Notes under the pieces: model-generated
Seen by the model: the letters and a program-made list of their open reading frames with translations, nothing else
Database searches by the model: none
What the model was told of the DNA's origin: nothing
Assembly: GCA_021648085.1 (NCBI GenBank)
Contig: JAKITS010000001.1
Coordinates: 915,201 to 979,200 of the forward strand
Reading direction: 5' to 3'
Source: Candidatus Magasanikiibacteriota bacterium
GTDB lineage: Bacteria > Patescibacteriota > Patescibacteriia > Magasanikbacterales > UBA922
Length of the DNA: 64,000 nt
Shown here: positions 12,301 to 61,382 of the stretch, in pieces
Layout: each line of letters opens with the position of its first letter
Numbering within the stretch: position 1 is the first letter of the stretch
Translations under genes and position numbers: made by a program

Positions 12301-12709
12301 AGTTGGTTACAACTATATGTTGAAACTTAACCATATGATCGAAGATAAAATTCATCAACGCTCTATTGGTCCTTATAGTCTTATCACACAGCAACCTCTT
12401 GGAGGAAAGGCTCAGTTTGGTGGACAGCGTTTTGGAGAGATGGAGGTTTGGGCTTTGGAAGCCTATGGAGCAGCTCATACTTTACAGGAAATTTTAACTA
12501 TAAAATCTGACGATGTACCAGGGCGCTCAAAAGCTTATGAGTCTATTATTAAAGGGGAACCAATTACAAAAGTAAATGTTCCAGAATCATTCAATGTACT
12601 AACAAGAGAACTTAAAGGTCTAGCTCTTGATGTAGAACTTTTAAAGAAAACCGAAGATGGTTATATCACTGTAAGAGGTGGAAAAACATCTAAGAGTTCA
12701 AAGGAATAA
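9320..12709 (+). CDS. rpoB: DNA-directed RNA polymerase beta subunit
   Basis: Full-length RpoB homology. The start is taken at the ATG at 9320 (MPIYKRQ…) rather than the TTG at 9302 reported by the ORF track. Confidence 0.95.
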   Translation: MPIYKRQPLKTKQRKFFTKFSSSLPVPDLIQAQKDSYSWFLREGIKELFEEVSPINDFTGRDLELYFEDYFIDEPKFDETTCREKNITFEAPLRATVKLLNKRTGKSTKQEIYLGDMPLMTERGTFVVNGIERVVVSQLIRSPGAFFTATNLRGRRFYGAKIIPNRGAWVEIETDQNNVIWAKVDRKRKIAVTALLRAFAGLNDEQIIDLFKDVNNHPTIDFIENTLKKDVSSNEEEGLIEVYKRIRPGDLATADNAKSLIHSMFFNFERYDLSKVGIYKFNTKFNLGLKDKDFEKKENRILSPEKLTSVIKEIIRLNITQEEPDDIDHLGNRRVRAVGELVQNRFRVGLSRMERIIRDRMSTYELIKLSPNKLVNARPVIASVHEFFMSAQLSQFMDQVNPLAELEHKRRISALGPGGLSRDRAGFEVRDVHTTHYGRVCPISTPEGPNIGLVGHLATYSKINSFGFLETPYRKVINEVPNEARFTEDEVSAKTIKGIVESGEKITKTIAKKLANTKAKTIKVKPRVTNEVVYLNSFEEERTVTASATTPVDGDGFILGVRIPARAYSESTIVKVEDVNYLDVASNQILSVATSLIPFLEYDDATRALMGSNMQRQSVPCITPDAPLVGTGMEKDAAKNSGYVIHAQATGEVTYLDGDKIEITSSKGEVYTHKLKKYVRSNVSSCINQRPVVRLGDNVKKGESLCDGPSIESSELALGQNVLVAYMMWDGFNYEDAIIISERLVQSDKYSSVHIEDYKLDIRDTKLGPELVTSDIPNVSEEKLKNLDAEGVVRVGAEVHSGDILVGKISPKGETELSPEERLLRAIFGDKARDVRDSSLYLEHGDKGKVIDVKVFSAEEGDKLQAGVVKQVQVTVADMRKIQVGDKMAGRHGNKGVIARVVPVEDMPFLEDGTPVDIILSPLGVVSRMNLGQLLETHLGLAANALGYKAAIPTLDGIPEEVIQGELKKAGFPEDGQLQLHDGRTGELFDHKTTVGYNYMLKLNHMIEDKIHQRSIGPYSLITQQPLGGKAQFGGQRFGEMEVWALEAYGAAHTLQEILTIKSDDVPGRSKAYESIIKGEPITKVNVPESFNVLTRELKGLALDVELLKKTEDGYITVRGGKTSKSSKE

Positions 12710-12722
12710 TAAAAATAAATTT

Positions 12723-29036: not shown

Positions 29037-29312
29037 GTGGAGCGTTATCGAAATTTAAAAAATAGTCTCACTACAGAAGTTAATCAAGTCGTTAATTTCT
29101 GTGGTCAGATTATAAGAGTCTCTAAATAAACATCTCAGCAGATGACTTATTTACTTAGAGAATCCAACTGATAGCACATTACAATTCAAGAGTCTTAATA
29201 GAGATATAAATTAAAATAATCTTTATAGCGATACAAAGTTATTTTAAATATATCTAAAAGAAAAATTGTAAGTAAAAAAATATTATATGCGAAAATACTA
29301 TTATGTGTTTTC

Positions 29313-32255
<2,943 letters not shown>

Positions 32256-32466
32256 GAAAGCACATAGTAGTTTTTTACTATAATAAATTCACATTTGTGT
32301 ATTTATATTACAAACATTTTTCTAATTATTTGAGGTTTAAATTGAATAGATTTTGCCAAAAAATTAGTTAGGACTCTTATTTGTGAAACAAAAAAGCAAT
32401 ATTTTGTTGATTTAAGTAGATTTATTTCTATTTAATTCTAGATTTTTTACAATTTAGTTTACAATT

Positions 32467-32573
32467 CCTGGTGTCTTTTGTGACGAGGGTACACCTGTTC
32501 CCATCTCGAACACAGCAGTTAAGTTCGTTTACGCCGATGATAGTCGAAAGGCAAAAGTAGGTAGGTGCCAGGT
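32467..32573 (+). rRNA. rrf: 5S ribosomal RNA
   Basis: CCTGGTG…CCCATCTCGAACACAGCAGTTAAG…GCCAGG with terminal helix pairing. The ends are approximate. Confidence 0.75.
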
Positions 32574-39661: not shown

Positions 39662-39734
39662 GTGCCTGTAGCTCAGGGGTTAGAGCACCACGCTTATAAC
39701 GTGGGGGTCGATGGTTCAATCCCATCCAGGCGCA
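39662..39734 (+). tRNA. tRNA-Ile (anticodon UAU)
   Basis: Manual cloverleaf. Acceptor GTGCCTG/CAGGCGC (one U-G pair), anticodon loop CTTATAA and T-loop TTCAATC. An extended -10 box TGGTATAAT lies about 60 nt upstream. Confidence 0.75.
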
Positions 39735-39751
39735 CAAATTAATTTCTACAA

Positions 39752-42288: not shown

Positions 42289-42302
42289 GAAAATTAAAAA
42301 TA

Positions 42303-42334
42303 AAAAACTGACGTAAATTGCGTCAGTTTTTTAT
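42303..42334. terminator. Bidirectional terminator (aaaaaactgacgtaaattgcgtcagtttttt) between rplS and uvrA
   Basis: 6 to 7-bp stem with A/T runs on both sides. Confidence 0.65.
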
Positions 42335-42347
42335 TTTGTTAGATTTT

Positions 42348-45233
42348 TTATCTATTGAAAACCTCTGCTTTCAAGTATTGTCCTGTCCAACTTTCTTTCA
42401 CTTTTGAGATTTCTTTTGGTGTGCCAACAGCTACAACCTGTCCTCCAGCTTTTCCACCTTCTGGTCCCATATCTATTACCCAGTCAGAACTTTTTACAAC
42501 ATCTAGATTATGCTCTATTGTTAGAACTGTATTTCCTTTTTTTACCAATTCGTTCAACACATGAAGTAGTCTTTTGATATCTTCGAAGTGAAGTCCTGTT
42601 GTAGGTTCATCCAAAATATACAAAGTTTTTCCTGTTGCTCTTCTTGATAATTCTGTTGCCAGTTTAATTCTTTGTGCCTCACCACCAGAAAGTGTGGTTG
42701 CAGGCTGTCCTAAATGCAGATAACCAAGCCCAACATTTCGTAGTACTTGTAATTTGTCTGCAATGTTTGAAATTTCTCTAAAGAATAAATATGCTTCTTC
42801 AACTGTCATTGCCAAAACATCTGCAATATTTTTTCTTTTGTAGTGAATTTCCAAAGCTTCTTTGTTGTATCTTCTTCCTTCGCATTCAGGGCATTCTATA
42901 AACACATCGTTTAAGAATTGCATTGGAATTCTTTTGTAACCTTCACCAGAACAAGCTTCACACCTTCCACCACCTTTTACATTGAAACTAAACATTCCAG
43001 CATCGTAGCCACGCATTTTGGCCTCTGGTACGCTTGTAAACAGATCGCGAATAGCTGTGAAAACTCCAGTATAGGTTGCAGGATTACTACGAGGAGTTCG
43101 ACCAATTGGACTTTGGTTTATTGTGATAACTTTGTCAATATGGTTGAATCCTGTGATTTTTTTGTGAGCTGCGGGTTCTGCTTTTGCTCTATAAAAATGT
43201 TTATGCAAAGCTTTGGATAAAATTCCAGAAATAAGAGTGGATTTTCCAGATCCAGAAACACCGGTCACACATACAAATTTTCCAAGTGGAATTTCAACGT
43301 CAATATTTTTTAGATTGAATGCTGTCGCACCTTGAATAGAAATACTTTTTCCATTTCCTTTGTTTTGTTTTTTTGGAATAGGGATTTCTTCGCGGTTTGC
43401 CATATATTGACCAGTCAGTGAATCTGTTTTACTAACTTCTTCTGGTGTTCCTTTTGCCATTATTTTCCCACCATAAATTCCAGCCCCAGGTCCAATGTCT
43501 ATTAAATAATCCGCAGCTTCCATTATGGCGCGGTCGTGCTCAACAACAATTACAGTATTTCCACTATCGCGTAATGCTTTTAAAGTGTCTATTAGTTTGT
43601 CATTGTCTTTTGAGTGAAGTCCAATTGAGGGCTCGTCCAAGACATAGATAACCTCATTTAATCCAGTTGAAAGTTGACTAGAAAGTCTAATTCTTTGTGA
43701 TTCACCACCTGAAAGTGTGGCAAAAGATCTGTCTAAAGTTAAATAGGATAACCCAACTTTTTGAAGATTTTCTAATTTTTTTGTAGATTCTTTTAGTAAA
43801 GGATTTGCAATTAATTTTTCATTTTTTGTAAAAGTTGGAATGCCGTCATATTTTTTTGGATCCACCAGTTTTTTGAAAAATGTTACAGCATCCCCAATAC
43901 CCATTTCTACAATATCACTAATGGAATAGTCTCCAATTCGTACAGCGAGTGAATCTTGCTTTAGTCTTCTTCCTTCACAAATAGGACAGACACTTTCTCT
44001 CATATAATGTTCAATTTCTTTACGAACATATTCTGAGTCTGTTTCTGCGTGTCGTTGGGTTAGGTTTGGAATAACTCCTTCAAATCGAACAACTTTGCTG
44101 TCCAGTTGATAAGTTTGTCCATCTGTGCCATATAAAACCAAGTCCATTACTTTTTTTGAAAGGTCCTTTACTGGTTTGTTTATGTTGAATTTTTGTTTTT
44201 CAGAAACAACTTTCAACAATTTTTGGTAATAAGTTTGATTTCCTACAATTCTGGTCCAAGGTTGAATAGCACCCTCTGCCAAAGTTAGGCGAGGGTTTGG
44301 AATTATTAGGGATGAATCAACATTTAAAGTATATCCAAGTCCTGTACAGCGGTTACATGCTCCGTGCGGGCTGTTGAAACTAAAACTTCTTGGCTCAACA
44401 GACTCAAAGGTTTTTCCAGATTCTGGACAGAATGGGAATGTTGTATATAAATTTTCGTCTCCTGTTTCTAGGTTCAATGCTATCAAAGATCCATTTGAAA
44501 GATCTAATGCTTTTTCTACAGCTTCTACTACCTTTTGTTTTTTAATATCGCTAATTGTTTCAATTACTATCTCTACATCATAAAGCTTTTTTGGTTCAAA
44601 TTTATATCTCTTTAAACTTAAAAGACTCATTTGAACACCATTTACGCGAAGTGAGTTGAAACCTGATTTTTCTAAGTTTGGCAAAAGCTGTTTTGCTTTT
44701 ATTGTTTTTTGTGCAATTATTGGAGCTAAAATTATAATTTCATCGCCAGAACGCGCTATCTTTCGTACTTGTTCTGCAATTTCTCCGGAGCTATATTGTT
44801 TTACGCAATGGTTTGTTTCGGGACAATACTGAATTCCTATTTTTGAAAAAAGTAATCGTAAATGATCGTAAATTTCTGTTATAGTTCCCACTGTTGAGCG
44901 TGGGTTTGTGCTGCTATTTTTTTGATCAATTGCAATAGTAGGGGAAAGTCCCAAAATTTCATCCACATCTGGCTTGTCATTTACATCCATAAATTGACGC
45001 GCATAAGAATTCAAGCTTTCTGCATAGCGTCTTTGTCCTTCGGCATATATAGTATCAAAAGCCAAAGAAGACTTTCCTGATCCAGAAAGTCCTGTGATGA
45101 CTGTTAATTTGTTCTTTGGTATTTCTACCGACACATCTTTTAAATTGTGTACTCTTGCGTTCTTAATTTTTATTTTGTTTATTTTCTTCATAATCTGTTT
45201 TTTCTGACTTTTTGTTTTAGTTACAGGTGTCAC
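42348..45233 (-). CDS. uvrA: Excinuclease ABC subunit A
   Basis: Duplicated ABC ATPase modules and zinc-finger Cys clusters (CPECEGRRY, CNRCTG, CEAC…). 961 aa. Confidence 0.95.
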   Translation of the reverse strand: MTPVTKTKSQKKQIMKKINKIKIKNARVHNLKDVSVEIPKNKLTVITGLSGSGKSSLAFDTIYAEGQRRYAESLNSYARQFMDVNDKPDVDEILGLSPTIAIDQKNSSTNPRSTVGTITEIYDHLRLLFSKIGIQYCPETNHCVKQYSSGEIAEQVRKIARSGDEIIILAPIIAQKTIKAKQLLPNLEKSGFNSLRVNGVQMSLLSLKRYKFEPKKLYDVEIVIETISDIKKQKVVEAVEKALDLSNGSLIALNLETGDENLYTTFPFCPESGKTFESVEPRSFSFNSPHGACNRCTGLGYTLNVDSSLIIPNPRLTLAEGAIQPWTRIVGNQTYYQKLLKVVSEKQKFNINKPVKDLSKKVMDLVLYGTDGQTYQLDSKVVRFEGVIPNLTQRHAETDSEYVRKEIEHYMRESVCPICEGRRLKQDSLAVRIGDYSISDIVEMGIGDAVTFFKKLVDPKKYDGIPTFTKNEKLIANPLLKESTKKLENLQKVGLSYLTLDRSFATLSGGESQRIRLSSQLSTGLNEVIYVLDEPSIGLHSKDNDKLIDTLKALRDSGNTVIVVEHDRAIMEAADYLIDIGPGAGIYGGKIMAKGTPEEVSKTDSLTGQYMANREEIPIPKKQNKGNGKSISIQGATAFNLKNIDVEIPLGKFVCVTGVSGSGKSTLISGILSKALHKHFYRAKAEPAAHKKITGFNHIDKVITINQSPIGRTPRSNPATYTGVFTAIRDLFTSVPEAKMRGYDAGMFSFNVKGGGRCEACSGEGYKRIPMQFLNDVFIECPECEGRRYNKEALEIHYKRKNIADVLAMTVEEAYLFFREISNIADKLQVLRNVGLGYLHLGQPATTLSGGEAQRIKLATELSRRATGKTLYILDEPTTGLHFEDIKRLLHVLNELVKKGNTVLTIEHNLDVVKSSDWVIDMGPEGGKAGGQVVAVGTPKEISKVKESWTGQYLKAEVFNR

Positions 45234-46803
45234 CAGGTACGTCTCTCACAGAATCATCAAGTATACTATATGTTTGCGAAATTAAACTTTCTGTTATTGT
45301 TAATTCTAAAAATAAACTTTTTTGAGAATTTCCTATTACACTTTCTATTGGTATAACATTATTTTGCCAACTTCCTGGTTTTTCACACCAAAGATGTGCA
45401 GATGCAGTTCTGTCACCTGATTTTACTACAAAAATATAAGCATCTTTTGGTGTTAAATTTATATTAATTTGATTCATTATCATGAATCCGTATGCTTTAC
45501 TACCAGACGGACATTGTACTGCAGCCTGTACAAACATACTTTCTTTAAACTTCAAAACATATTCGTAAAAGGAATTTGATGAGTTGAGAGTTTCAAATTC
45601 TGGTGTAACTTCTTTATAATTATCTCCTGTAACTTCTCCTTCACAAACAGGGTAAATTCTCACAGTCATTTGATAGTCCTCATCCCCACTAAGGTTTGAT
45701 GGATCTTCCAACCATCTATCATCTCCATTGTCGGATTGCTCCAAAGTTACAACATCTTCAAGAGTGGATCTTTTTGCCAACTCCCAAAGTGATTGTTCCA
45801 CTTTATAATGCATTATTAAAACTCCATCCCAACAAGCACTTTCAGGAATTTTTTCATGAACTCTGTGTATTCCTGTTTGTATGAAATTATTTATATTTGT
45901 ATCAAACGGAACACACGCTTTATTCCTCTCACTACATATAGCACCAACACAAGTTGAACTTCCTGCTCCTTGTACAAAATAATCGCTACCACATTCTGTT
46001 TTTTGTGGATCAACATTATATCCATTAGTTTGGATTTTATTTAATCCATCTATTTTTAGTTGATTTATGCGTTGTTCTTCTTTAGTAATTCTTTGTTCTG
46101 CAAGTACTTTTGCTTCTGGCGTTAAGGCACTTGTAGATTGACTTTTTAAAAGTAAAAGTTGTTGTTTTTGACTTTTTGGAAGTGCTAAAGCAACTGGGGT
46201 TTTAATTAAACTACAATAGTTTGCACCCAAAGCAATCCTATTTATCATCCAGACATTTGGTAAACGCAATTCTACAAGTGCAGGATTTATAGTTTCCAAA
46301 AGTGTAAAAGAACCAACTGCCAAAACTAATCCTATTATTGCTCCAAATATGCGTTTTTTGGCTGAACCAATTGTAGCTGCATTTCCTCCAGACGCAACCC
46401 ATTGAAATCCTGCAACGATTACCATAAGTGTTGCCAAGATTCCAGCCACCATTACACCATATTTATAGATATATTTCAAGAAATCACCTATATTTGCAAA
46501 ATTTTGTCTTCCACCAAATTTGACTTGAGTCTTTGTTTCGGATGCTGGCAGACAAAATCCCATAACCTCTCCCGGTGTTCCAGTTATAGAGCCAACCGGT
46601 ACTTTTCCGCAACCATTTTTTGGATCTGGTTTTTCAAAAAAACCTTCGTTTGGGGTTTGTGATTTATATTGTGTTCGTAGTTGTACGCACTGTTCTTTTG
46701 TAAAGCATTTACTATCCACTTGTGCGTTTGCAAAAATTGGTGCAAATAAAAATAAAATACTTAAAGCAATAATGATTTTTTTCATATTATTTTTGTAGTT
46801 CAC
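45217..46803 (-). CDS. Cys-rich secreted/membrane protein of unknown function
   Basis: Signal peptide, about 16 Cys, a hydrophobic pair of helices (GVMVAGILATLMVIVAGF… and IFGAIIGLVLAVGSF…) and a large C-terminal domain. Overlaps the upstream DsbA-like gene by 17 nt. Confidence 0.55.
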   Translation of the reverse strand: MNYKNNMKKIIIALSILFLFAPIFANAQVDSKCFTKEQCVQLRTQYKSQTPNEGFFEKPDPKNGCGKVPVGSITGTPGEVMGFCLPASETKTQVKFGGRQNFANIGDFLKYIYKYGVMVAGILATLMVIVAGFQWVASGGNAATIGSAKKRIFGAIIGLVLAVGSFTLLETINPALVELRLPNVWMINRIALGANYCSLIKTPVALALPKSQKQQLLLLKSQSTSALTPEAKVLAEQRITKEEQRINQLKIDGLNKIQTNGYNVDPQKTECGSDYFVQGAGSSTCVGAICSERNKACVPFDTNINNFIQTGIHRVHEKIPESACWDGVLIMHYKVEQSLWELAKRSTLEDVVTLEQSDNGDDRWLEDPSNLSGDEDYQMTVRIYPVCEGEVTGDNYKEVTPEFETLNSSNSFYEYVLKFKESMFVQAAVQCPSGSKAYGFMIMNQININLTPKDAYIFVVKSGDRTASAHLWCEKPGSWQNNVIPIESVIGNSQKSLFLELTITESLISQTYSILDDSVRDVPGDTCN

Positions 46804-47557
46804 TTACTATTATAGAATCCCAACTAGACAAGTTTGTAGTGCCTTCTAGTTTTGTTTGGTTTACAATATAGGTTGGAGTTCCTCTTACACCTAAACTAAC
46901 ACCATCTTTTAAGTCTTGTTCTATATTTGCACGGTGCACCTGTTTTGTTAGGCAGTTTTGAAAAATTGAAATATTTAAATTTAAATCTTCTGCATTTTTT
47001 ACCAAAGATTCATAATCCAACTTTTTATTTATAAAAAGCAGATCATAATATTCCCAAAACATTCCCTGATCTTGCGCGCAAGTGGAAGCAAGCCCAGCTT
47101 GAACTGCATTTGGATGAATACTTGTAAGTGGAAAGTGTTTAAATACTACATTTATGGCTGAGTCGTATTTTGAGACTACCTGTTTAAGTATAGGATAAGA
47201 TTCCTGACTAAACGGGCATTCAAAATCTATAAATGCGATAATTGTGATAGGAGCGTTTGTATTATTAAGCGTTGGGTTGAAGCTTCTTATAAATTGACTA
47301 ACATCTTCTTCAATTTCTGGACGGGCTTCCAAAGGAATATCCGTACTAAAGCTAAAGTGGTTGTTGAATTTTTCTGTAAGCTCTGTCGGGTCGCCAAACT
47401 TAACATTCCATAAATAATACCCTAAAAGTATTAAGAAAGCAAGTGTTAAAGCTGTAATAGTAAAAGAAAAAATTAAAAATAAAATACCTAGCGTCTTTTT
47501 GTACCAAGGTTTTTTTGGAATATAATTGTCTTTTGATAGTTCTACAAAACCACTCAT
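46787..47557 (-). CDS. DsbA-like thioredoxin-fold protein with an N-terminal TM anchor and a CPFS (single-Cys) active-site motif
   Basis: …FIDFECPFSQ… and …GTPTYIVN… match the DsbA family CxxC and cis-Pro regions. The second Cys is replaced by Ser. Confidence 0.55.
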   Translation of the reverse strand: MSGFVELSKDNYIPKKPWYKKTLGILFLIFSFTITALTLAFLILLGYYLWNVKFGDPTELTEKFNNHFSFSTDIPLEARPEIEEDVSQFIRSFNPTLNNTNAPITIIAFIDFECPFSQESYPILKQVVSKYDSAINVVFKHFPLTSIHPNAVQAGLASTCAQDQGMFWEYYDLLFINKKLDYESLVKNAEDLNLNISIFQNCLTKQVHRANIEQDLKDGVSLGVRGTPTYIVNQTKLEGTTNLSSWDSIIVSELQK

Positions 47558-47652
47558 ATATCTAGTTATGTATTTATTTCTTATATTATAGCAAAAAATA
47601 AAACAACATTATAGTGAGTTTTAGTTTTTATTGATTGAATAACAGATTTCTA

Positions 47653-47681
47653 TTGACAAAAACACTAAAATGTAATACAAT
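47653..47681 (+). promoter_or_regulatory. Promoter candidate for rpsB-tsf (TTGACA, 17 bp, TACAAT)
   Basis: Read directly. Followed by a ~115-nt leader containing the tttgaaaacattttcaaa palindrome. Confidence 0.5.
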
Positions 47682-47795
47682 ATTGCCATTACCGAGTCAA
47701 CAATTAGTTGGTAAACATATTTATCACTTTCTGTATTTTTCCTCTTTTTGAAAACATTTTCAAAAGGTACACAGGAAGGAAGTTAAAAGGAAATT

Positions 47796-54476: not shown

Positions 54477-56045
54477 ATGTCAAAAATTAAAGATAAAAAA
54501 CTTACGGTTTTGGTTATTTTGGATGGGTTTGGTTTGACTGGGTTTAAGAATATTGGAAATGCTATTACACCAAAAACTGCTCCAAATATTTTTAAGTATA
54601 TAAAAAAATATCCAAGTACAGAATTGAAAGCATCTGGTGTAAGTGTTGGTTTGCGTTCTGGTCAAAAAGGAAATTCCGAAGCAGGACACTTTAATATAGG
54701 CGCAGGAAGAATTGTTGAGCAGGATTTAATGATAATATCAAAAGCAATAAAAGATGGTACTTTTTTCAAAAATTTAGCTTTCAAGCAGGCACTTTTTCAC
54801 GCAAAAAAATATAATTCTACTGTGCATATTTTTGGACTTTTAACCAATGGACATTCTGCACACGCTTGCCCAGATCATTTATACGAGCTTTTAAATTTTT
54901 TTAGAAGAGAAGAGTATAAAAAAATCTCATTACACTTATTTACAGATGGTAGAGATGCACCTCCTAATTCTGCAATAAAGTATTTAAAGAAATTAAAAAA
55001 ATATTTAAAAAATGGAGAAAAAATAGCCAGTATAAGTGGTCGTTTTTATTCTATGGATAGAAATAAGGTCTGGGAAAGAACAGAAAAAACTTACAATTTG
55101 ATAGTTTCTGGAGAAGCTAAATATACAGCAGTAAGTGCAGAGGAAGCCATAAATAAAGCATACAAAAGAGGGGAAACAGATGAATTTATTCATCCAACAG
55201 TTTTAATAAATAAAAAAAGAAAACCAATATCAAAAATAAAAGATAACGATGTGGTATATTTTTATAATGCAAGAAGTGATAGAGCAAGACAGCTTACAAA
55301 AGCTTTTGTACAAAAGGATTTCATAAAGCACAATAAAGGTGCATTTAAGAGGAAAAATAAACCAAAAAATATTCGCTTTGTCGCGATGACAGATTTTGGG
55401 CCAGATTTAGAAGGTGTTTTAACTGCGTTTCCTAGTCCAGATATAAAAATGCCGCTAGCAAAAGCAATTGGAGAGGAATATAAACAACTTTATATATCAG
55501 AAACAGAGAAATATGCACATATTACATATTTTATAAATGGAGGTTATGCTGGTGCGGTAAATGGTGAAGATAGGGAAATGATAAGATCGGGCTGTCACTA
55601 TTCTTATTCAGAAAAGCCACAGATGCATTGTAAAAATTTAACTAGTATTATTTTGGATTATATTAAAAAAGATAAATATAATTTTATTTGTGTAAATTAT
55701 CCAAATGCGGATATTGTTGCACATACTGGAAATTTTAAATCTGCAAAAAAAGCATTAGGATTTCTGGATAAACAGATAAAACGACTAGTAAAAGGTGTTT
55801 TAAAAAAGAATGGGCAGGTGTTAATTATTGCAGATCATGGTAATGCTGAAGAAATGATTTACAAAAAAACAAAAGGAGTTAGAACAGAACACACAACAAA
55901 CCCTGTCCCTTGTATTTTTATTAAGAAAAAAGTAAAAGATATAGAATTGAAAACAGGAGGAAAACTTGCCGATGTTGCACCAACGCTATTAAAAATAATG
56001 GATATTAAAAAACCAAAGGAGATGACCGGTAAATCTTTAATTTAA
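54477..56045 (+). CDS. gpmI: 2,3-bisphosphoglycerate-independent phosphoglycerate mutase, paralogue 1
   Basis: ILDGFG, GNSEAGHFNIGAGR, VAHTGN and IADHGNAEEM are iPGM metal and catalytic-Ser motifs. Confidence 0.85.
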   Translation: MSKIKDKKLTVLVILDGFGLTGFKNIGNAITPKTAPNIFKYIKKYPSTELKASGVSVGLRSGQKGNSEAGHFNIGAGRIVEQDLMIISKAIKDGTFFKNLAFKQALFHAKKYNSTVHIFGLLTNGHSAHACPDHLYELLNFFRREEYKKISLHLFTDGRDAPPNSAIKYLKKLKKYLKNGEKIASISGRFYSMDRNKVWERTEKTYNLIVSGEAKYTAVSAEEAINKAYKRGETDEFIHPTVLINKKRKPISKIKDNDVVYFYNARSDRARQLTKAFVQKDFIKHNKGAFKRKNKPKNIRFVAMTDFGPDLEGVLTAFPSPDIKMPLAKAIGEEYKQLYISETEKYAHITYFINGGYAGAVNGEDREMIRSGCHYSYSEKPQMHCKNLTSIILDYIKKDKYNFICVNYPNADIVAHTGNFKSAKKALGFLDKQIKRLVKGVLKKNGQVLIIADHGNAEEMIYKKTKGVRTEHTTNPVPCIFIKKKVKDIELKTGGKLADVAPTLLKIMDIKKPKEMTGKSLI

Positions 56046-56055: not shown

Positions 56056-57639
56056 ATGGCAGATAGACCAAAGCCAGTTGTGTTGGCTGTATTAGATGGT
56101 TGGGGTGTTGCCCCAGATCACAAAGGAAACGCAATTACACAAGGAAAAACACCAAGTTTTGACAAATTTATAAAAGAGTACCCAGTGATGACTATTTCGG
56201 CATCTAGTTCAGAGGTCGGTCTTTCTTATGGGGAAATGGGAAATTCAGAAGTTGGGCATTTGAATATTGGGGCTGGAAGAGTTTATTACCAAACTTTTCC
56301 AAGAATAAACAAGAGTATTGAAGAGGGTGATTTTTTTGAAAATGAAGCTTTTTTAAAAGTTGCTGAGCAGGTAAAAAATAATAAGTCATCACTTCATTTG
56401 ATAGGTTTGGTAAGTCCTGGAAATGTGCATGCAGCAGACAAACATTGTTATGCTCTCTTGGAGTTTGCAAAAAAACAAAAAATCAAAAAAGTTTTTGTGC
56501 ATGTAATTATGGATGGTCGCGATGCGTTGTATAATGCTGGAATTCAATTTGTACAAGAACTTCAAACAAAAATGAAAGAAATTGGTGTTGGAAAAATTGC
56601 GTCTTTGTCTGGAAGATATTTTGCATTGGATAGGGACAGTAGATGGGATAGAGTAGAAAAAGCATATAGAGCAATGGTAGAAGGTGTCGCTGAAAATTAT
56701 ACAACAGACCCTTTAAAAACAATTCAGGAGTTTTATGATAAAGAAATTTTTGATGAAGAATTTCCACCAACTGTAATTGGAAAAGAGGGAAAACCAGAAA
56801 CCACAATAAAAAGTGAAGATGGTGTAATATTCTTTAATTTTAGACCAGATAGAGCACGGCAGCTTACTCAATCTTTTGTCTTGCCTGGATTTGATAAATT
56901 TGAAAGAGAATATATAAAAGGTTTATCTTTTACGACCATGACTGAATATGAAAAAGAACTTCCTGTTGATGTTGCTTTTCCACCAGATATTGTAAGAAAT
57001 TGCTTGGCAGAAGTTGTGAGCAGAGCTGGTTTGAAACAATTTCATATAGCAGAAACAGAAAAATATGCGCATATTACTTTTTTCTTGAATGGAACTGTTG
57101 AGGATCCATTTGAAAATGAAGATAGAGAAATAGTACCGTCGCCAAAAGTAGCTTCGTATGACAAAGCTCCAGAAATGTCTGCTCCAGAAATCACAAAAAA
57201 AGTTATAAAAGCAATTGAGTCAGATAAATACGATGTAATATTTATGAATTTTGCCAATGCGGACATGGTAAGCCATACGGGGGACTTAGGAGCTACAAAA
57301 CTTGCAGTAGAAATAGTAGATAAAGGGCTTGGGCAAATAGCAGAGTATGTACTTGCAAAAGACGGCGTAATGCTCATTACAGCCGACCATGGAAACGCTG
57401 AAGAGGTGGTAAATTTGCAGACTGGCGATAAAGTAAAAGAACATAGTACAAATCCTGTACCATTTATAATTATTGGTAATAATTATAAAGGACAGGCTGG
57501 TCCAGCAGGAGATCCGCCAGAAGGAGATTTGAGTCTTATGACTTCAGTTGGCATGCTTGCAGATGTAGCACCAACAGTTTTGAAGATTTTAGAAATAGAG
57601 CAACCACCGGAGATGACAGGCCAGTCACTATTACCTTGA
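56056..57639 (+). CDS. gpmI: 2,3-bisphosphoglycerate-independent phosphoglycerate mutase, paralogue 2
   Basis: VLDGWGV, GNSEVGHLNIGAGR, VSHTGD and TADHGNAEEV. About 35-40% identity to paralogue 1 by eye. Confidence 0.85.
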   Translation: MADRPKPVVLAVLDGWGVAPDHKGNAITQGKTPSFDKFIKEYPVMTISASSSEVGLSYGEMGNSEVGHLNIGAGRVYYQTFPRINKSIEEGDFFENEAFLKVAEQVKNNKSSLHLIGLVSPGNVHAADKHCYALLEFAKKQKIKKVFVHVIMDGRDALYNAGIQFVQELQTKMKEIGVGKIASLSGRYFALDRDSRWDRVEKAYRAMVEGVAENYTTDPLKTIQEFYDKEIFDEEFPPTVIGKEGKPETTIKSEDGVIFFNFRPDRARQLTQSFVLPGFDKFEREYIKGLSFTTMTEYEKELPVDVAFPPDIVRNCLAEVVSRAGLKQFHIAETEKYAHITFFLNGTVEDPFENEDREIVPSPKVASYDKAPEMSAPEITKKVIKAIESDKYDVIFMNFANADMVSHTGDLGATKLAVEIVDKGLGQIAEYVLAKDGVMLITADHGNAEEVVNLQTGDKVKEHSTNPVPFIIIGNNYKGQAGPAGDPPEGDLSLMTSVGMLADVAPTVLKILEIEQPPEMTGQSLLP

Positions 57640-57717: not shown

Positions 57718-58419
57718 ATGCCAGAGTATATTCAAGGTGATAATCATTTTGCAAAATCCTATCAAGTTATGAAAGAGGTTTTGAGGGGTGATTATGTAGA
57801 GACTCCTTCTAGAATACCTTTTAGTACTCCAGAGGATAAAAATGGTGAACTTACTATTGTTTGTTCTTTAAAATTAGGAAATAGAACTGTAGAAATCAAT
57901 GAGAAACAGGGAGTTGGCACACTTCATGCTTTCTTTTTAGGTTTGCGTTCTGCTTTATTTGCAGATTTTCAAACTTTAAAAACTGTTACAACTCTTAGTT
58001 TTAAACAGGAGTCAATAGGTAGGCAAAATAGTATTTCTCGAAATCCAAAAAATGATAAATTGTATGAGTTTGGCTTTGGAGTAGCTGTTAAAACTAGTTT
58101 AACTATTAAAAATGGCAAAGGAAGTGAGTTTACTTTTGAAAAAACTTCTTTAGATTGTATTCAAGCACCACTTTTGTTGGTTTTGGAAGCTGTTTTATTT
58201 TTTGTAAATAGTGAAGAAGCTTACAGAAGAGCTAGGAGGAGATTTGCAGATAGTAAATCTGATTCTGGATATATTCAAGACAGTATTTTACCAACTTTGA
58301 CAAAGAATAATGATTATAGATGTATTGCTAAAAGCATAAGAGAAGAAGCAGACAAAGAGCGTGCAAAACTTCCAAAACAAGGAGGAATTGCAATGCCTTT
58401 GAAACATTATAATGACTAA
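57718..58419 (+). CDS. Hypothetical protein
   Basis: SD AGGAGGGG upstream. 233 aa with no motif recognised. Confidence 0.45.
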   Translation: MPEYIQGDNHFAKSYQVMKEVLRGDYVETPSRIPFSTPEDKNGELTIVCSLKLGNRTVEINEKQGVGTLHAFFLGLRSALFADFQTLKTVTTLSFKQESIGRQNSISRNPKNDKLYEFGFGVAVKTSLTIKNGKGSEFTFEKTSLDCIQAPLLLVLEAVLFFVNSEEAYRRARRRFADSKSDSGYIQDSILPTLTKNNDYRCIAKSIREEADKERAKLPKQGGIAMPLKHYND

Positions 58420-58444
58420 ACACACAAACCAAAAGGTATAAATC

Positions 58445-59170
58445 ATGAGAAAAGGGGTAAAGATTTTTTTGGCAATATCAGTATTTTTATTGTTTGGTTC
58501 TAGTTTTACTTTTGCAGAGGGGTTTAGACCTTCTATTGCTGTGCCAGATGATATAGATTTTCAAGATTTGGAAAAAGATACTTTGGAACAAGTCTTGCAA
58601 GAAGTAAAAGAAATAAAACAAGAATTGAAAGAATTAACAGTGGAATATAAAAAAGCCACAAAAGATACTACGGATTATATTTTTGTGAGTGGTAAACAGT
58701 GGAGTAAAACCACTACAAATTTGACGGCTTCGTTTATTATTATCGATGACTTGGAAGATAATTATTTTTTTATGATTGGATATTTGTATCCGCCAACAGA
58801 GTTAACAGATACAAAAGATCTTCCAAAGGATACGGCGTCAATTTCTTACCGCGAATTTAATATTCAAGGTTCTGCAAATTGGCTACCAATCCGTTGGAAT
58901 AATTTTGATAGTGTAAAGGATTATTGTAAGCTTGGTTTAGATTTTGGATTTGGTTTTTATTTCAATTGGCAGGCTGGATTGCGAATCAAAAACCATGAAG
59001 TTGGGCTTGGTTTAGACATAGAAATTCCAGATCCAGTTGTGAATTTGGAAGATGGTTTAGGTTTCCAAATTCTAATGGTAGGTACGATAAGCCATGCTGT
59101 GATTGTAAGCGGTTGTAGAGCAACTGCAGATTATTCTGCATGCTTCCTAACTGGAGGAGCACGCTTTTAA
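58445..59170 (+). CDS. Hypothetical secreted protein with signal peptide
   Basis: N-terminal MRKGVKIFLAISVFLLFGSSFTFA. Alternating hydrophobic, beta-rich C-terminal half. Confidence 0.45.
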   Translation: MRKGVKIFLAISVFLLFGSSFTFAEGFRPSIAVPDDIDFQDLEKDTLEQVLQEVKEIKQELKELTVEYKKATKDTTDYIFVSGKQWSKTTTNLTASFIIIDDLEDNYFFMIGYLYPPTELTDTKDLPKDTASISYREFNIQGSANWLPIRWNNFDSVKDYCKLGLDFGFGFYFNWQAGLRIKNHEVGLGLDIEIPDPVVNLEDGLGFQILMVGTISHAVIVSGCRATADYSACFLTGGARF

Positions 59171-59472
59171 TGAAAAAACAAAAGTTCTTCAAAAAACAAA
59201 ACTCCCTATTTTCAATAGGGAGTTTTTTAATTGAAATAATTAACAACTATCAATTAACAAAGAACAAAAGTAAAAGATGGACTAACGTTTTAATTTAATT
59301 GTTTATATTCTAATTATACTGCACAAGTATACCTTCGACTCCACTTCGTTCTGCTCAAGATGACGTAAAATAATCACGTTATCCTGAGCGAAATGTAGCG
59401 AAGCGGAATGCAGTCGAATGGATCTCGTTTTTGATTCACAATATTTTAAAAATAAAATTATATAGAAAAACA

Positions 59473-60642
59473 TTAAAGATTTTCTAATATTTTTTGTGTA
59501 ATTTTGTTTTCTGCATTTTTTAGTGTTTCGTTGGTCAAAACAAAACGAACTTCTGTAGAATTTCCTGTTGGTCTAAACTCTCTAGAAATTTTTATAGCAT
59601 TAAATGGTTTTACAGTTTTCAAAATTCCATATATTGAATTATTTTGTTTTGGATGTTCGTGCAAAAGTAGTACTATTTTTGCATCAGGTGAAGTTAGGAT
59701 TAAATCATCAAAAATATCATTTAAATCTTTCACATTTGTTCCAGTTCTTACAAAATTATCACTAGTAATGGTGGACCACACAAACTTTGACTCAATATTA
59801 TTTTGTAAATTTGTCAAAACATCTCCCCATAATTTTAATGTAGAAAGTTTTTTATTTTTGTATAAATTTTGTACAACTTCTTGCCTATTTGCTCCAAGTT
59901 TTATGAGTTGGCTTGCAATCATCAAGGTACGCGGACGAATTTTTGGAGATTGAAAACTTTTTGTATTTACAATCATTCCAGTAAGTAGCGCATTTGCAAT
60001 ATCACTATCCAAATGTTCTGAAGCCAACTTGTTGATAAGTAGATATACAGTTTCAGAGATAGAAGTAGATGTAATGTTTACAAAATTGATATGACCAAAA
60101 TGTTCATTTTCTGTACTAAATCCTACATTTAAAATCGGTGTATCGAAAAATAATTTTGTATTGTTTCTATAAATTTTTCCTAAAGATTCCAATTCTACTA
60201 CTCCAACCGTTACAATTAAATCGTATTTAAATTCAGTTGAACGCATTTTTATTTGGTCTGGCAAAAATGCTCCATTTTTTGGAGTGATAGAAATGCTCAA
60301 CTTATCACCAGCTACACTATAGTTTACTTCTTTTAGACCATTTTTTGTTAGATCTACTTTTATAATACATCTACGCAAATCTTCAAATTTTGAAGTTATT
60401 TTTTTTGTTTCTGGAAGAAAATTTAGCTGTTCAGGATTTTTAAAACTTTCTGATATAACATCTACATTTTTACCTAATTTTTTGAAAAACAAAGAAAGCG
60501 CAATCGAACTTGCGATAGCGTCGTGATTTCCATTTTTTGGGAAGCATACAAGTACATTCTTTTTATTCTCCAGTACTTGGTTAATTTGTTCTACTAATGT
60601 TAATACCATATTGGTGATATGTATAGTAGATAATATTATCAA
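59473..60642 (-). CDS. DHH-family NrnA-like protein with degenerate catalytic motifs
   Basis: …VCFPKNGNHDAIASSIALSL…GKNVDVIS aligns with NrnA H.HxxPDGDAIGS…L…G.nv. …EHFGHINFVNITSTSISETVYLL aligns with IDHHPNEDPYGDLLWVDTSASSVSEMIYEL, but DHH is replaced by EHF. The GGGH motif is not found. Confidence 0.45.
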   Translation of the reverse strand: MIILSTIHITNMVLTLVEQINQVLENKKNVLVCFPKNGNHDAIASSIALSLFFKKLGKNVDVISESFKNPEQLNFLPETKKITSKFEDLRRCIIKVDLTKNGLKEVNYSVAGDKLSISITPKNGAFLPDQIKMRSTEFKYDLIVTVGVVELESLGKIYRNNTKLFFDTPILNVGFSTENEHFGHINFVNITSTSISETVYLLINKLASEHLDSDIANALLTGMIVNTKSFQSPKIRPRTLMIASQLIKLGANRQEVVQNLYKNKKLSTLKLWGDVLTNLQNNIESKFVWSTITSDNFVRTGTNVKDLNDIFDDLILTSPDAKIVLLLHEHPKQNNSIYGILKTVKPFNAIKISREFRPTGNSTEVRFVLTNETLKNAENKITQKILENL

Positions 60643-61382
60643 TTTGTGAGCATAATGTCAAGCAGAAAAACAAAAAATAGTAAATAAATATGCCAAGTAT
60701 TTTTAATAAATAAAAAACCGTACTGCAAATAGTACGATTTTGTGAGTTTTAGAAAATTCTTTTTTCTCTTGCTTCTTTCTTTTCTCTTTCTTTTTGTGCT
60801 TTTTCTATATTTATTTCTTCTTGTTTGTGTTTTCTTCCATCAAGCCAAAAAGTTCGTGCAATTACAAATTCATATCCTGTCGTAAGTAAATCTCCAGTAT
60901 CTGGATTTCTTGGAAGGATAGATTCGATAGCTTGAGAAAATATAACACGGTCTTGACATTCTACAATTTCTTTCAATGTATTATTTCTATTATATATTTT
61001 TCCAATAAAAAAGTTATTCTATTTATCATAGTAAATCTATATCTTTTGTGTCCATCAAACCTACGAATTTCAAATTCACAAACTTGAATTTCTTCACCTT
61101 TAGAATTTTTTGAAAAATGATTTTTTGTAAAAGTCAGACCGAGCATAATTTTCTCCTTGTGGTACTGGTAAAATGAACCAATATTAAATTACCATTTTTT
61201 ACGTATTTTGTAAAGTTAAATAATCATTATTTTCCCTTTTTACAACTTTAACAACCGGAACAAGTGTAGCGATAGAACATTTAGAACACTTATTAGTTGA
61301 TTTTTTAGTGAATTTCTTTTAAACTACAAGGAGAAATGAGATTAAACTTGAAAATACATCTTTACTGAATACAAAAATTGTT

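What the first reader, a model, noticed from the sequence alone, without database searches (positions are those of the whole stretch)
45217..47557. Two-gene operon: a single-cysteine DsbA-like protein with a Cys-rich membrane protein
The upstream gene encodes a membrane-anchored thioredoxin-fold protein whose active site is CPFS rather than CxxC, and it keeps the DsbA cis-Pro region GTPTYIVN. It overlaps by 17 nt a 528-aa protein with a signal peptide, about 16 cysteines, a hydrophobic helix pair reminiscent of TrbC/VirB2-type pilin membrane hairpins, and a large C-terminal domain. The pairing suggests a dedicated oxidative-folding or isomerase partner for a disulfide-rich surface protein. A single-Cys DsbA cannot catalyse oxidation in the usual way.
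Basis: partly seen in the sequence, partly recalled or inferred. Interest (0 to 1): 0.55.

Follow-up and report, generated by a model that had tools for sequence, protein, structure and literature searches.

The report
One-cysteine DsbA beside cysteine-rich pilin-like protein
In a tiny-genome bacterium (Candidatus Magasanikbacteria) a membrane-anchored DsbA-type disulfide enzyme that has lost its second catalytic cysteine is co-transcribed with a large surface protein built on 12 invariant cysteines; the pairing is conserved across dozens of species, and the second cysteine has been lost about 30 separate times in this enzyme family.

Summary
The likely pilin start is ATG 46785, one base after the dsbA stop, not a 17-nt overlap. 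The protein is 522 aa with 14 cysteines, and uvrA follows with no terminator, so the unit probably has three genes.

Gene 1 is a class-II DsbA (BdbD/MdbA/ScsC-like; AF2 pLDDT 91) with an N-terminal membrane anchor. It has CPFS in place of CxxC, an intact Thr-cisPro loop and a conserved second cysteine pair.

Gene 2 has a signal peptide, a 4-Cys ectodomain, a VirB2/T4SS_pilin-type helical hairpin and a 10-Cys C-terminal ectodomain with no match to solved (PDB) or predicted viral (BFVD) structures. Twelve cysteines are invariant in 144 diverse relatives, and cysteine counts are overwhelmingly even.

dsbA→pilin adjacency holds in 47 species loci and in 5 of 6 loci sampled from the DsbA side.

The monothiol site is a recurrent polymorphism. 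Of 161 orthologues, 109 are CPxC, 45 CPxS and 7 CPxT, in about 30 shallow independent groups. The first cysteine is invariant, and there is no compensating change or rate acceleration.

Best reading: a thiol-disulfide exchange (isomerase-like) folding catalyst for the co-encoded disulfide-rich surface protein, working through the N-terminal cysteine alone. This is a new variant of a known kind.

The parts
46787..47557 (-). dsbA-like gene, 256 aa, a membrane-anchored class-II DsbA (BdbD/MdbA/ScsC-like) with a monothiol active site
   Evidence: ORF. Pfam Thioredoxin_4 1.3e-19 and DSBA 1.1e-13. 100% identical to NCBI 'DsbA family protein', Candidatus Magasanikbacteria (P0026). AF2 pLDDT 90.9. Foldseek PDB matches to 3gyk, BdbD, ScsC, TsdA and alpha-DsbA.
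47402..47485 (-). N-terminal signal-anchor transmembrane helix of the DsbA (about residues 25-52), preceded by a basic cytoplasmic stretch KKPWYKK
   Evidence: Kyte-Doolittle peak 2.57 at residues 25-43. AF2 helix 22-54. KPWYK is conserved in the A3 consensus.
47207..47218 (-). Active-site tetrad CPFS (C114-P-F-S117; codons TGC CCG TTT AGT) at the N-terminus of helix alpha1
   Evidence: Sequence and codons. The first Cys is invariant in 161/161 orthologues; the fourth position is C 109, S 45, T 7.
47078..47080 (-). C160, first of the invariant non-catalytic Cys pair in the helical insertion (probable structural disulfide with C202)
   Evidence: Invariant in A3 and in all 48 syntenic DsbAs.
46952..46954 (-). 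C202, second of the invariant non-catalytic Cys pair
   Evidence: Invariant.
46871..46882 (-). cis-Pro loop G226-T-P-T229
   Evidence: T227 and P228 are invariant in A3. GTPT is present in 43 of the 48 syntenic DsbAs; the five exceptions keep the Pro.
45217..46785 (-). Cysteine-rich VirB2-hairpin ('pilin') gene, 522 aa from ATG 46785 (the mechanical ORF extends to GTG 46803)
   Evidence: ORF. Junction sequence. P0001 is 100% identical, 522 aa, named 'pilin' by NCBI. 486 representative clusters at E<=1e-30.
46723..46785 (-). Signal peptide MKKIIIALSILFLFAPIFANA (residues 1-21, A-N-A cleavage motif)
   Evidence: Hydrophobic peak at residues 4-22. AF2 helix 2-13.
46480..46722 (-). N-terminal ectodomain (residues 22-102) with four invariant Cys (C27, C33, C59, C78)
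   Evidence: 144/144 conservation. 4 Cys in most syntenic partners. Small beta domain in the AF2 model.
46288..46479 (-). VirB2/T4SS_pilin-type transmembrane helical hairpin (residues 103-166) with a basic loop SAKKR
   Evidence: PF18895 E 1.1e-5 and TrbC E 2.9e-3. 25/25 relatives hit PF18895. NCBIfam Mbov_0395 pilin-like 6.4e-4. TM peaks at 109-127 and 146-164. AF2 helices 99-131 and 136-166.
45220..46287 (-). C-terminal ectodomain (residues 167-522). Eight invariant Cys (C191, C265, C279, C284, C291, C318, C381, C425) plus a lineage-specific pair (C467, C521). Helical stalk 204-254 and a beta-rich domain.
   Evidence: Cys conservation. AF2 model pLDDT 75.6. No significant fold match in PDB or BFVD and no PDB sequence relative.
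42348..45191 (-). uvrA, third co-directional gene, probably in the same transcript
   Evidence: Pfam UvrA_DNA-bind and UvrA_inter. 25-nt spacer. No terminator before it. Follows the pair in most loci.
42297..42337 (.). Bidirectional terminator-like hairpin that closes the dsbA-pilin-uvrA unit and the convergent rplS
47558..47795 (.). Divergent intergenic region between dsbA and rpsB-tsf (presumed promoters)
   Evidence: The promoter scan is not above the shuffle expectation.

Best explanation
The unit is dsbA-like -> Cys-rich hairpin protein -> uvrA in a Candidatus Magasanikbacteria (Patescibacteria/CPR) chromosome.

The DsbA-like protein is anchored N-in by one helix, so its catalytic domain faces the outside of the cytoplasmic membrane. 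The co-transcribed 522-aa protein is exported by a signal peptide and held in the membrane by a VirB2-type helical hairpin (basic loop inside). It displays two ectodomains that together carry 14 cysteines, 12 of them invariant in the family, so six conserved disulfides plus one extra (inferred).

The enzyme keeps the nucleophilic N-terminal cysteine (C114), the Thr-cisPro loop and a structural cysteine pair, but has Ser in place of the resolving cysteine. It therefore cannot cycle through an intramolecular CxxC disulfide and cannot be recharged by a DsbB/VKOR-type partner in the canonical way.

The most likely mechanism is inferred, not shown. C114 attacks client disulfides, or is itself loaded as a mixed disulfide, and forms enzyme-client mixed disulfides that the client's own cysteines resolve. 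This is isomerase/shuffling chemistry, as in CxxS protein disulfide isomerases. It would guide the multi-disulfide surface protein, and probably other exported proteins, to its native pairing.

Across the family the resolving cysteine is evolutionarily optional while the first cysteine is indispensable. That argues the essential chemistry of the whole family needs only the first cysteine.
For: Shown:
- DsbA fold and class.
- CPFS, with only three Cys in the protein, so no substitute resolving Cys.
- Topology of both proteins.
- Twelve Cys invariant in 144 representatives of <=50%-identity clusters. Cys counts are even in 120 of 143 (binomial p 5e-17) and in 37 of 39 complete syntenic partners.
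- dsbA immediately upstream of the Cys-rich protein in 47 species loci, typically 1-30 nt apart. This includes loci with very divergent DsbA-likes and no uvrA (L044, L046, L047, L049). The same order is seen in 5 of 6 loci reached from the DsbA side.
- Ordinary small PF18895 pilins (median 135 aa, median 0 Cys) never have a dsbA within 6 kb.
- Fourth active-site residue: C 109, S 45, T 7 among 161 orthologues. The first Cys is present in 161/161. At least 29 parsimony changes, in 30 non-Cys groups of at most 4 leaves.
- Ser is encoded by both AGY and TCN codons, which indicates independent origins.
- No other column co-varies with the change, and branch lengths are the same in both states. The Ser/Thr forms are therefore functional, not decaying.

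From the literature:
- A single cysteine suffices for the S. gordonii oxidoreductase SdbA in vivo, and quinone-less anaerobes are proposed to use low-molecular-weight disulfides (PMC12453122).
- T4SS gene sets of F-like plasmids carry thioredoxin-fold helpers, one with CXXC (TrbB) and one without (TraF) (PMC11315126).
Against: - No biochemical data exist for any member.
- Partners of CxxC and CxxS/T enzymes show the same even cysteine counts, so disulfides must still be introduced in CxxS/T lineages. A pure isomerase does not explain where the oxidising equivalents come from. The DsbA itself also has an invariant, presumably oxidised, cysteine pair.
- One relative has dsbA -> uvrA with no pilin between them (L082), so the enzyme is not strictly tied to this client.
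- The whole genome could not be searched for a second DsbA, DsbB, VKOR or MauE. Only the 64-kb window and about +/-6 kb of the related loci were examined, with none found.
- The NJ tree is approximate, so the number of independent switches is an estimate.
- Gene order in reduced genomes can be conserved without functional coupling, and uvrA is conserved next to the pair as well.
Confidence: 0.5

Rival explanations
1. It is a genuine oxidase that works with one cysteine. C114 is loaded by an external oxidant: a low-molecular-weight disulfide such as cystine, sulfenylation by O2/H2O2, or an intermolecular C114-C114 dimer. It then passes the disulfide to clients through a mixed disulfide. On this view it is the cell's general disulfide-forming enzyme, and the pilin-like protein is simply its largest client.
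For: - Disulfide-rich partners with even Cys counts persist unchanged in CxxS/T lineages, so oxidation continues there.
- The enzyme itself keeps an invariant second Cys pair.
- No DsbB/VKOR-like gene lies in the window or near any locus.
- SdbA provides a precedent for single-cysteine oxidation, and LMW-thiol-driven pathways have been proposed for quinone-less anaerobes (PMC12453122).
- L082 keeps the enzyme without the adjacent pilin.
Against: - SdbA uses the C-terminal cysteine, whereas here the N-terminal one is kept.
- No oxidant or loading partner is identified.
- About two thirds of the family keep CxxC, so the dithiol form is still favoured over long times: non-Cys clades have at most 4 leaves.
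Confidence: 0.25
2. It is a redox-silent or retention-type helper. The CxxS protein acts as a holdase/chaperone, like the CXXC-less TraF of F-like T4SS. Alternatively, like ERp44, it captures immature pilin through a reversible mixed disulfide and releases it only on assembly, as quality control rather than catalysis.
For: - Tight co-transcription with a single large client.
- T4SS-associated thioredoxin-fold proteins lacking a functional CXXC are known (PMC11315126).
- One relative next to a Cys-rich pilin has lost both active-site cysteines (L049, EASDT), so a cysteine-free form can exist.
Against: - The N-terminal Cys and the cis-Pro loop are invariant in 161 of 161 orthologues, which argues for thiol chemistry.
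- Partners have even Cys counts and no conserved spare cysteine to be held.
- There is no rate acceleration or co-varying surface change in the Ser/Thr forms.
Confidence: 0.12
3. There is no specific functional link. The adjacency is inherited gene order (rpsB-tsf | dsbA - pilin - uvrA) in a streamlined genome, and Cys-to-Ser/Thr is a nearly neutral drift polymorphism of a housekeeping enzyme.
For: - uvrA, which has no plausible link, is conserved in the same block.
- The neighbourhood is housekeeping.
- The C/S/T state shows no correlated change anywhere else in the protein or in the partner.
Against: - The dsbA-pilin pairing persists where uvrA and rpsB-tsf are absent, and with DsbA-likes only 20-32% identical (L044, L046, L047, L049).
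- Spacers are 1-30 nt.
- dsbA is linked only to the Cys-rich subfamily, never to Cys-free small pilins.
Confidence: 0.13

Closest known systems
Class-II (Gram-positive-type) DsbA: B. subtilis BdbD, actinobacterial MdbA/TsdA, M. tuberculosis DsbA, ScsC, Wolbachia alpha-DsbA
   Same: Thioredoxin fold with a helical insertion, a Thr-cisPro loop and a membrane anchor or lipoprotein-type tether. alpha-DsbA1 (PDB 3f4t, a C97A/C146A variant) and M. tuberculosis DsbA (the latter from my own knowledge) also carry a second non-catalytic disulfide. Profile E-values are 1e-23 to 1e-16 and Foldseek TM to target is 0.66-0.88.
   Different: All characterised members use CxxC and, where known, a DsbB/VKOR partner. 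Here the resolving Cys is Ser, and in the family it switches among C, S and T. No partner gene was seen locally.
Natural CxxS thioredoxin-fold proteins (ERp44 CRFS, yeast Eug1p, CxxS variants of PDI; monothiol glutaredoxins)
   Same: They retain only the N-terminal nucleophilic cysteine and act through mixed disulfides (isomerisation, thiol-mediated retention). This comparison is from established knowledge, not tested here.
   Different: These are eukaryotic ER or cytosolic proteins of the PDI/Grx subfamilies, not DsbA-class enzymes with the helical insertion. There is no evidence of homology beyond the shared fold.
S. gordonii SdbA
   Same: An extracytoplasmic oxidoreductase of a monoderm without a DsbB/VKOR partner that can work with one cysteine of its CXXC (PMC12453122, citing Davey et al. 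2016).
   Different: SdbA belongs to the AhpC/TSA-type family, the sufficient cysteine is the C-terminal one, and the wild-type protein still has CXXC.
Pilus/T4SS-linked thioredoxin-fold helpers: F-plasmid TrbB and TraF, Salmonella BcfH
   Same: A thiol-disulfide oxidoreductase-like gene is encoded with the surface-appendage genes it serves. TraF lacks CXXC (PMC11315126). BcfH appears among the structural matches.
   Different: TrbB and TraF are periplasmic proteins of diderm conjugation systems (described as putative DsbC homologues) and were not compared directly here. The present pair sits in a housekeeping chromosomal block with no T4SS ATPase nearby.
VirB2/TrbC and Patescibacteria T4SS_pilin (PF18895) proteins
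   Same: Signal peptide plus two hydrophobic helices around a short basic loop. HMM matches fall on that region in all 25 relatives. VirB2-like pilins are widespread in Patescibacteria (PMC12102498).
   Different: Typical members are 110-150 aa with no or two Cys, and often lie in arrays near virB4 (PMC12102498). This protein is 522 aa with two disulfide-rich ectodomains flanking the hairpin and is not near T4SS genes. The window protein scores just below Pfam's gathering threshold (25.9 or 22.9 bits against 26.6).

Membership tests
DsbA family (Pfam DSBA PF01323 / Thioredoxin_4 PF13462), class II | Thioredoxin fold with an inserted helical domain | tested here: met
   Pfam scores are above the gathering thresholds (71.4 and 51.9 bits). 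Profile hits to solved DsbA-class structures. AF2 pLDDT 90.9, and Foldseek TM to target up to 0.88.
DsbA family (Pfam DSBA PF01323 / Thioredoxin_4 PF13462), class II | Catalytic CxxC dithiol at the N-terminus of helix alpha1 | tested here: not met
   CPFS (TGC CCG TTT AGT), and there are only 3 Cys in the protein. 52 of 161 orthologues likewise have S or T.
DsbA family (Pfam DSBA PF01323 / Thioredoxin_4 PF13462), class II | cis-Pro loop facing the active site | tested here: met
   G226-T-P-T229. T227 and P228 are invariant in the 66-sequence alignment A3; in the 48 syntenic DsbAs the Pro is invariant and the Thr is present in 46. The cis conformation itself is inferred.
DsbA family (Pfam DSBA PF01323 / Thioredoxin_4 PF13462), class II | Extracytoplasmic location | tested here: met
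   A single N-terminal TM helix (residues 25-52) follows a basic segment (AF2 helix 22-54). This is a prediction only.
DsbA family (Pfam DSBA PF01323 / Thioredoxin_4 PF13462), class II | Re-oxidation by a DsbB or VKOR partner | tested here: inconclusive
   No candidate was found in the 64-kb window or within about 6 kb of dsbA in 86 loci. The rest of the genome could not be searched.
DsbA family (Pfam DSBA PF01323 / Thioredoxin_4 PF13462), class II | Disulfide oxidase activity | not testable with these tools
   This requires biochemistry.
VirB2/TrbC-type T4SS pilin (PF04956, PF18895) | Signal peptide followed by two hydrophobic helices separated by a short basic loop | tested here: met
VirB2/TrbC-type T4SS pilin (PF04956, PF18895) | Family HMM match at or above the curated threshold | tested here: inconclusive
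   The window protein scores 25.9 bits (528-aa form) or 22.9 bits (522-aa form) against a gathering score of 26.6. All 25 relatives match at E<=0.01, with a best value of 1.8e-9. There is no sequence match to any solved pilin.
VirB2/TrbC-type T4SS pilin (PF04956, PF18895) | Small protein (about 100-150 aa) consisting essentially of the hairpin | tested here: not met
   522 aa, with an 81-aa N ectodomain and a 356-aa C ectodomain. Ordinary family members in the fetched loci have a median length of 135 aa.
VirB2/TrbC-type T4SS pilin (PF04956, PF18895) | Encoded with T4SS machinery (VirB4 etc.) | tested here: not met
   No T4SS ATPase or VirB6-like gene was found among the window ORFs of at least 120 aa that were scanned; six of them, in 9302-16724 and 57718-62132, were not scanned. 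The neighbours are uvrA, rpsB, tsf and glycolytic genes.
VirB2/TrbC-type T4SS pilin (PF04956, PF18895) | Polymerises into a pilus | not testable with these tools
   No structural or experimental data are available.
Monothiol (CxxS) thiol-disulfide isomerase/retention proteins (ERp44, Eug1p type): a 'works like' comparison only | Only the N-terminal active-site Cys is retained, and it is conserved under selection | tested here: met
   C114 is invariant in 161/161 while position 117 varies among C, S and T.
Monothiol (CxxS) thiol-disulfide isomerase/retention proteins (ERp44, Eug1p type): a 'works like' comparison only | Homology to the PDI/ERp44 subfamily | tested here: not met
   The best sequence and structure matches are all bacterial DsbA-class proteins.

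The most novel reading that the evidence does not exclude
In this Patescibacteria lineage (Magasanikbacteria and relatives) extracytoplasmic disulfide formation and shuffling runs on a one-cysteine DsbA mechanism that is independent of DsbB, VKOR and quinones. The resolving cysteine is an evolutionarily switchable accessory, gained and lost dozens of times, perhaps tracking the redox state of the habitat. On this reading the dsbA-pilin cassette is a core module that builds a six-disulfide, VirB2-anchored surface protein with a previously undescribed ectodomain fold, possibly used for host attachment by these epibionts.
Probability: 0.3. Interest if true: 0.72.

Novelty: new variant of a known kind. 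Interest (0 to 1): 0.52.

Why it matters
How bacteria without respiratory quinones make and proof-read disulfide bonds is an open question. CPR/Patescibacteria have not been examined: no paper in the searchable library mentions both DsbA and the Candidate Phyla Radiation.

This family offers a natural experiment. There are 161 orthologues in which the resolving cysteine of a DsbA is present or absent in closely related species, while the nucleophilic cysteine, the fold and the disulfide-rich client stay fixed. That makes the question of what a DsbA can do with one cysteine directly testable with matched natural pairs, for example the window protein (CPFS) against P0029 (CPFC, 57% identical).

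It also defines a large uncharacterised family, with at least 486 clusters at 50% identity. These are surface proteins that use a VirB2-type hairpin as a membrane anchor for a 12-cysteine scaffold. That is relevant to the cell-surface and host-interaction biology of Patescibacteria, in which VirB2-like pilin arrays have been reported as essential (PMC12102498).

Tried and rejected
- Covalent-partner idea: a CxxS DsbA stably disulfide-linked to a spare cysteine of the pilin. Rejected, because partner Cys counts are even in both ectodomains and do not differ between CxxC, CxxS and CxxT lineages.
- Compensating cysteine elsewhere in CxxS proteins. Rejected, because they have exactly three Cys.
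- Co-adaptation of other residues with loss of the resolving Cys. No column is significant after correction (best p 2e-4 over 954 tests).
- Decay or pseudogenisation of the Ser/Thr forms. Rejected, because terminal and root-to-tip branch lengths are the same (p 0.53 and 0.44) and the invariant residues are kept.
- Sequencing error or recoding. Rejected, because the variant recurs in 52 sequences with both AGY and TCN Ser codons and ACN Thr codons, and there is no in-frame UGA.
- Local search for DsbB/VKOR-like genes (at least 3 TM helices plus CxxC) in the window and 86 loci. It returned only other Cys-rich pilin-type proteins.
- NCBIfam hit to the Rcas_1661 (seleno)lipoprotein family. The score is far below the cutoff (64 against 190 bits), so this is a general thioredoxin-like similarity only.
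- Promoter scan. The result was not above the shuffled expectation.

Full report
**What is there**

The window is a low-GC (about 32%) chromosomal segment. It carries 23S and 5S rRNA. The ORFs I scanned include recA, ftsK, ruvC, pnp and glycolytic genes; the two largest ORFs (9302-16724) were not scanned.

Both proteins of the finding are 100% identical to proteins of a 984-kb Candidatus Magasanikbacteria (Patescibacteria/CPR) contig. NCBI names them 'DsbA family protein' and 'pilin' (P0026 and P0001).

The genes lie on the minus strand:
- dsbA-like, 47557..46787 (256 aa);
- the large ORF, 46803..45217 as a mechanical GTG ORF;
- uvrA, directly downstream.

The junction reads ...CAA AAA TAA t ATG AAA AAA ATC. 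All close homologues begin MKKIII, and NCBI's model is 522 aa. The real start is therefore almost certainly ATG 46785, one base after the dsbA stop, rather than a 17-nt overlap.

uvrA most likely starts at ATG 45191, 25 nt after the pilin stop. No terminator-like hairpin occurs until 42297-42337, just past uvrA. The transcription unit is thus probably dsbA-pilin-uvrA, divergent from rpsB-tsf.

**Gene 1**

Pfam gives Thioredoxin_4 (1.3e-19) and DSBA (1.1e-13).

A profile of 66 orthologues hits solved DsbA-class structures:
- 3gyk, 1.4e-23;
- C. diphtheriae DsbA/TsdA, about 2e-19;
- ScsC, about 1e-17;
- BdbD, 1.9e-16.

The AlphaFold model is confident (pLDDT 90.9). It superposes on 3gyk, BdbD, ScsC, TsdA, alpha-DsbA and BcfH with Foldseek probability 1.0.

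The model has one long N-terminal helix (residues 22-54; hydrophobic peak 25-43) after a basic KKPWYKK stretch. This is a signal anchor that puts the catalytic domain outside the membrane.

C114 sits at the start of helix alpha1 in C-P-F-S. G226-T-P-T229 is the cis-Pro loop. C160 and C202 are the only other cysteines; both are invariant in the family and most likely form a structural disulfide in the helical insertion.

**Gene 2**

The 522-aa protein has four parts:
- a signal peptide (residues 1-21, ANA|Q);
- an 81-aa ectodomain;
- two hydrophobic helices (109-127 and 146-164) around SAKKR;
- a 356-aa C-terminal region with a helical stalk (204-254) and a beta-rich domain.

The AF2 model of the whole protein has mean pLDDT 75.6.

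The hairpin matches PF18895 T4SS_pilin (E 1e-5; 25.9 bits against a gathering score of 26.6), TrbC/VirB2 (3e-3) and NCBIfam Mbov_0395 pilin-like conjugal transfer protein (6e-4). All 25 relatives match PF18895, with a best E-value of 1.8e-9.

All 14 cysteines lie in the two ectodomains: four in the N ectodomain and ten in the C ectodomain.

An exhaustive profile search found 486 cluster representatives (50% identity) at E<=1e-30. These are full-length family members. It found 39,828 at E<=1e-3, which is the hairpin superfamily.

In 144 full-length representatives, twelve cysteines are invariant or nearly so: C27, C33, C59, C78, C191, C265, C279, C284, C291, C318, C381 and C425. The minimum cysteine count is 12. 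Counts are even in 120 of 143 proteins (p 5e-17). That is the signature of a fully disulfide-bonded extracytoplasmic scaffold with six conserved bonds. The window protein adds a lineage-specific pair (C467, C521).

The ectodomains have no significant structural match in PDB or BFVD and no sequence relative among solved structures.

**Is the pairing real?**

A scan of one genome per GTDB species with the family profile returned 79 loci.

- In 47 of the 79 loci the Cys-rich protein is immediately preceded by a dsbA-like gene on the same strand, usually 1-30 nt away. Most are Magasanikbacteria, a few are labelled Uhrbacteria, Parcubacteria or Patescibacteria group, and many carry mislabelled MAG titles. 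uvrA follows in most of them.
- Three more large members (L021, L027, L042) sit at a contig edge, so their upstream side is unknown.
- The pairing persists where uvrA and rpsB-tsf are absent, and where the DsbA-like protein is only 20-32% identical (L044, L046, L047, L049).
- The ordinary small PF18895 pilins in the remaining loci (median 135 aa, median 0 Cys) never have a dsbA within 6 kb.
- Sampling from the DsbA side gave the same order in 5 of 6 cases (P0069, P0036, P0045, P0064, P0094). In one case dsbA is followed directly by uvrA (L082).

The link is with the Cys-rich subfamily specifically, although the enzyme can exist without the adjacent client.

**The single cysteine is a family-wide polymorphism**

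- Among the 120 best database hits the motif is CPFC 52, CPYC 31, CPFS 19, CPYS 14 and CPHS 1.
- Among the 48 syntenic DsbAs, the fourth residue is C in 28, S in 12 and T in 7; one has lost both cysteines.
- In a combined set of 161 non-identical orthologues, the first cysteine is present in 161/161, and the fourth residue is C 109, S 45, T 7.
- On a neighbour-joining tree built without the active-site columns, parsimony needs at least 29 C/non-C changes, with a Cys root. Shuffled states give a mean of 44 and a minimum of 37.
- The non-Cys sequences fall into 30 groups of at most four leaves.
- Serine is encoded by both AGY (4) and TCN (8) codons. These are each one step from TGY but not from each other, which independently argues for repeated origins.
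- Ser/Thr forms show no longer branches (p 0.53 and 0.44), no other co-varying column and no extra cysteine.
- Their partners have the same even cysteine counts as partners of CxxC enzymes: 11 of 11 complete CxxS partners, 5 of 6 CxxT and 21 of 22 CxxC.

**Mechanistic reading**

Two things are shown. This is an outward-facing DsbA-class domain whose nucleophilic cysteine and substrate-binding loop are under strict selection. It is co-transcribed with a protein that needs six or seven disulfides.

The rest is inferred. Without the resolving cysteine the enzyme cannot hold an intramolecular disulfide or be recharged in the DsbB/VKOR manner, so catalysis must run through enzyme-client mixed disulfides resolved by the client. 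This is isomerase or shuffling chemistry, as established for CxxS forms of protein disulfide isomerase (general knowledge).

The resolving cysteine comes and goes while nothing else changes, so the essential function of the whole family probably needs only the first cysteine.

The main weakness is the source of oxidising equivalents, since disulfides clearly persist in CxxS/T lineages. A single-cysteine oxidase loaded by a small-molecule disulfide, by sulfenylation or by dimerisation is therefore a serious rival. SdbA is a precedent for single-cysteine oxidation, and low-molecular-weight thiol pathways have been proposed for quinone-less anaerobes (PMC12453122).

Two other alternatives are less likely but not excluded. 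One is a redox-silent chaperone or ERp44-like retention role (compare TraF of F-like T4SS, PMC11315126). The other is mere inherited synteny.

No DsbB/VKOR-like gene lies in the window or near any locus. The rest of the genome could not be examined.

**Comparison with what is known**

By fold and sequence the enzyme belongs with class-II DsbAs (BdbD, MdbA/TsdA, ScsC, alpha-DsbA), but it fails the defining CxxC criterion.

By chemistry it would work like natural CxxS thioredoxin-fold proteins (ERp44, Eug1p), to which it is not specifically related.

The client carries a VirB2/T4SS_pilin hairpin, a module recently shown to be widespread in Patescibacteria (PMC12102498). It is four times larger than a pilin, is not near T4SS genes, and seems to use the hairpin as an anchor for ectodomains. 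The same use is suggested by relatives that fuse VanY or Hint domains to the hairpin protein.

The searchable literature holds no paper that mentions both DsbA and the Candidate Phyla Radiation.

**Verdict**

The added value is threefold:
- the conserved dsbA-pilin cassette;
- the 12-cysteine scaffold family;
- the recurrent loss of the resolving cysteine.

It is a new variant of known kinds rather than a new kind of system, and the mechanism remains inferential. Interest is moderate (0.52).

Noticed in passing
L083 5857-7884; L085 5779-7722: Two members of the Cys-rich hairpin family (675 and 647 aa) end in a Gly/Ser-rich linker followed by a C-terminal Hint/intein-like domain (CFPAGT...VLVHNK; weak Pfam PT-HINT, Hint and Hint_2 hits). 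This suggests autoprocessing of the ectodomain in some lineages.
   Followed up: partly
P0019, P0025 (relatives): These relatives combine a VanY D-Ala-D-Ala carboxypeptidase domain with the T4SS_pilin hairpin. The hairpin therefore seems to serve as a general membrane anchor for ectodomains in Patescibacteria.
   Followed up: no
L082 8001-10772: In one metagenomic relative the order is rpsB-tsf | dsbA (CPFS) -> uvrA, with no pilin-like gene between them.
   Followed up: partly
L049 4042-4524: A DsbA-like gene upstream of a Cys-rich pilin pair has lost both active-site cysteines (EASDT in place of ECPFS) while keeping the structural Cys pair.
   Followed up: no
L055 7380; L059 7184; L061 679; L064 1081; L068 7590; L074 3070: Other Cys-rich pilin-type proteins (300-370 aa, 18-24 Cys) sit in small-pilin arrays with no dsbA nearby.
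   Followed up: no
window 39662-39735: There is a tRNA-Ile with anticodon TAT. This is unusual for bacteria, which normally read AUA with a lysidine-modified CAU tRNA (own knowledge).
   Followed up: no
window 29312-32573: 23S and 5S rRNA are present, with a tRNA-Leu upstream, but there is no 16S rRNA anywhere in the 64-kb window. The rRNA operon appears to be unlinked.
   Followed up: no
window 54477-56045 and 56056-57639: Two tandem paralogues of cofactor-independent phosphoglycerate mutase (iPGM_N + Metalloenzyme) lie after enolase.
   Followed up: no
window 16991-19966: A 991-aa ORF has no Pfam match at E<=0.001.
   Followed up: no
window 47494-47530 (DsbA residues about 10-21): The cytoplasmic N-terminus of the DsbA family carries a conserved motif, KPWYK(T/K), just before the membrane anchor (A3 consensus). 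Its function is unknown.
   Followed up: no
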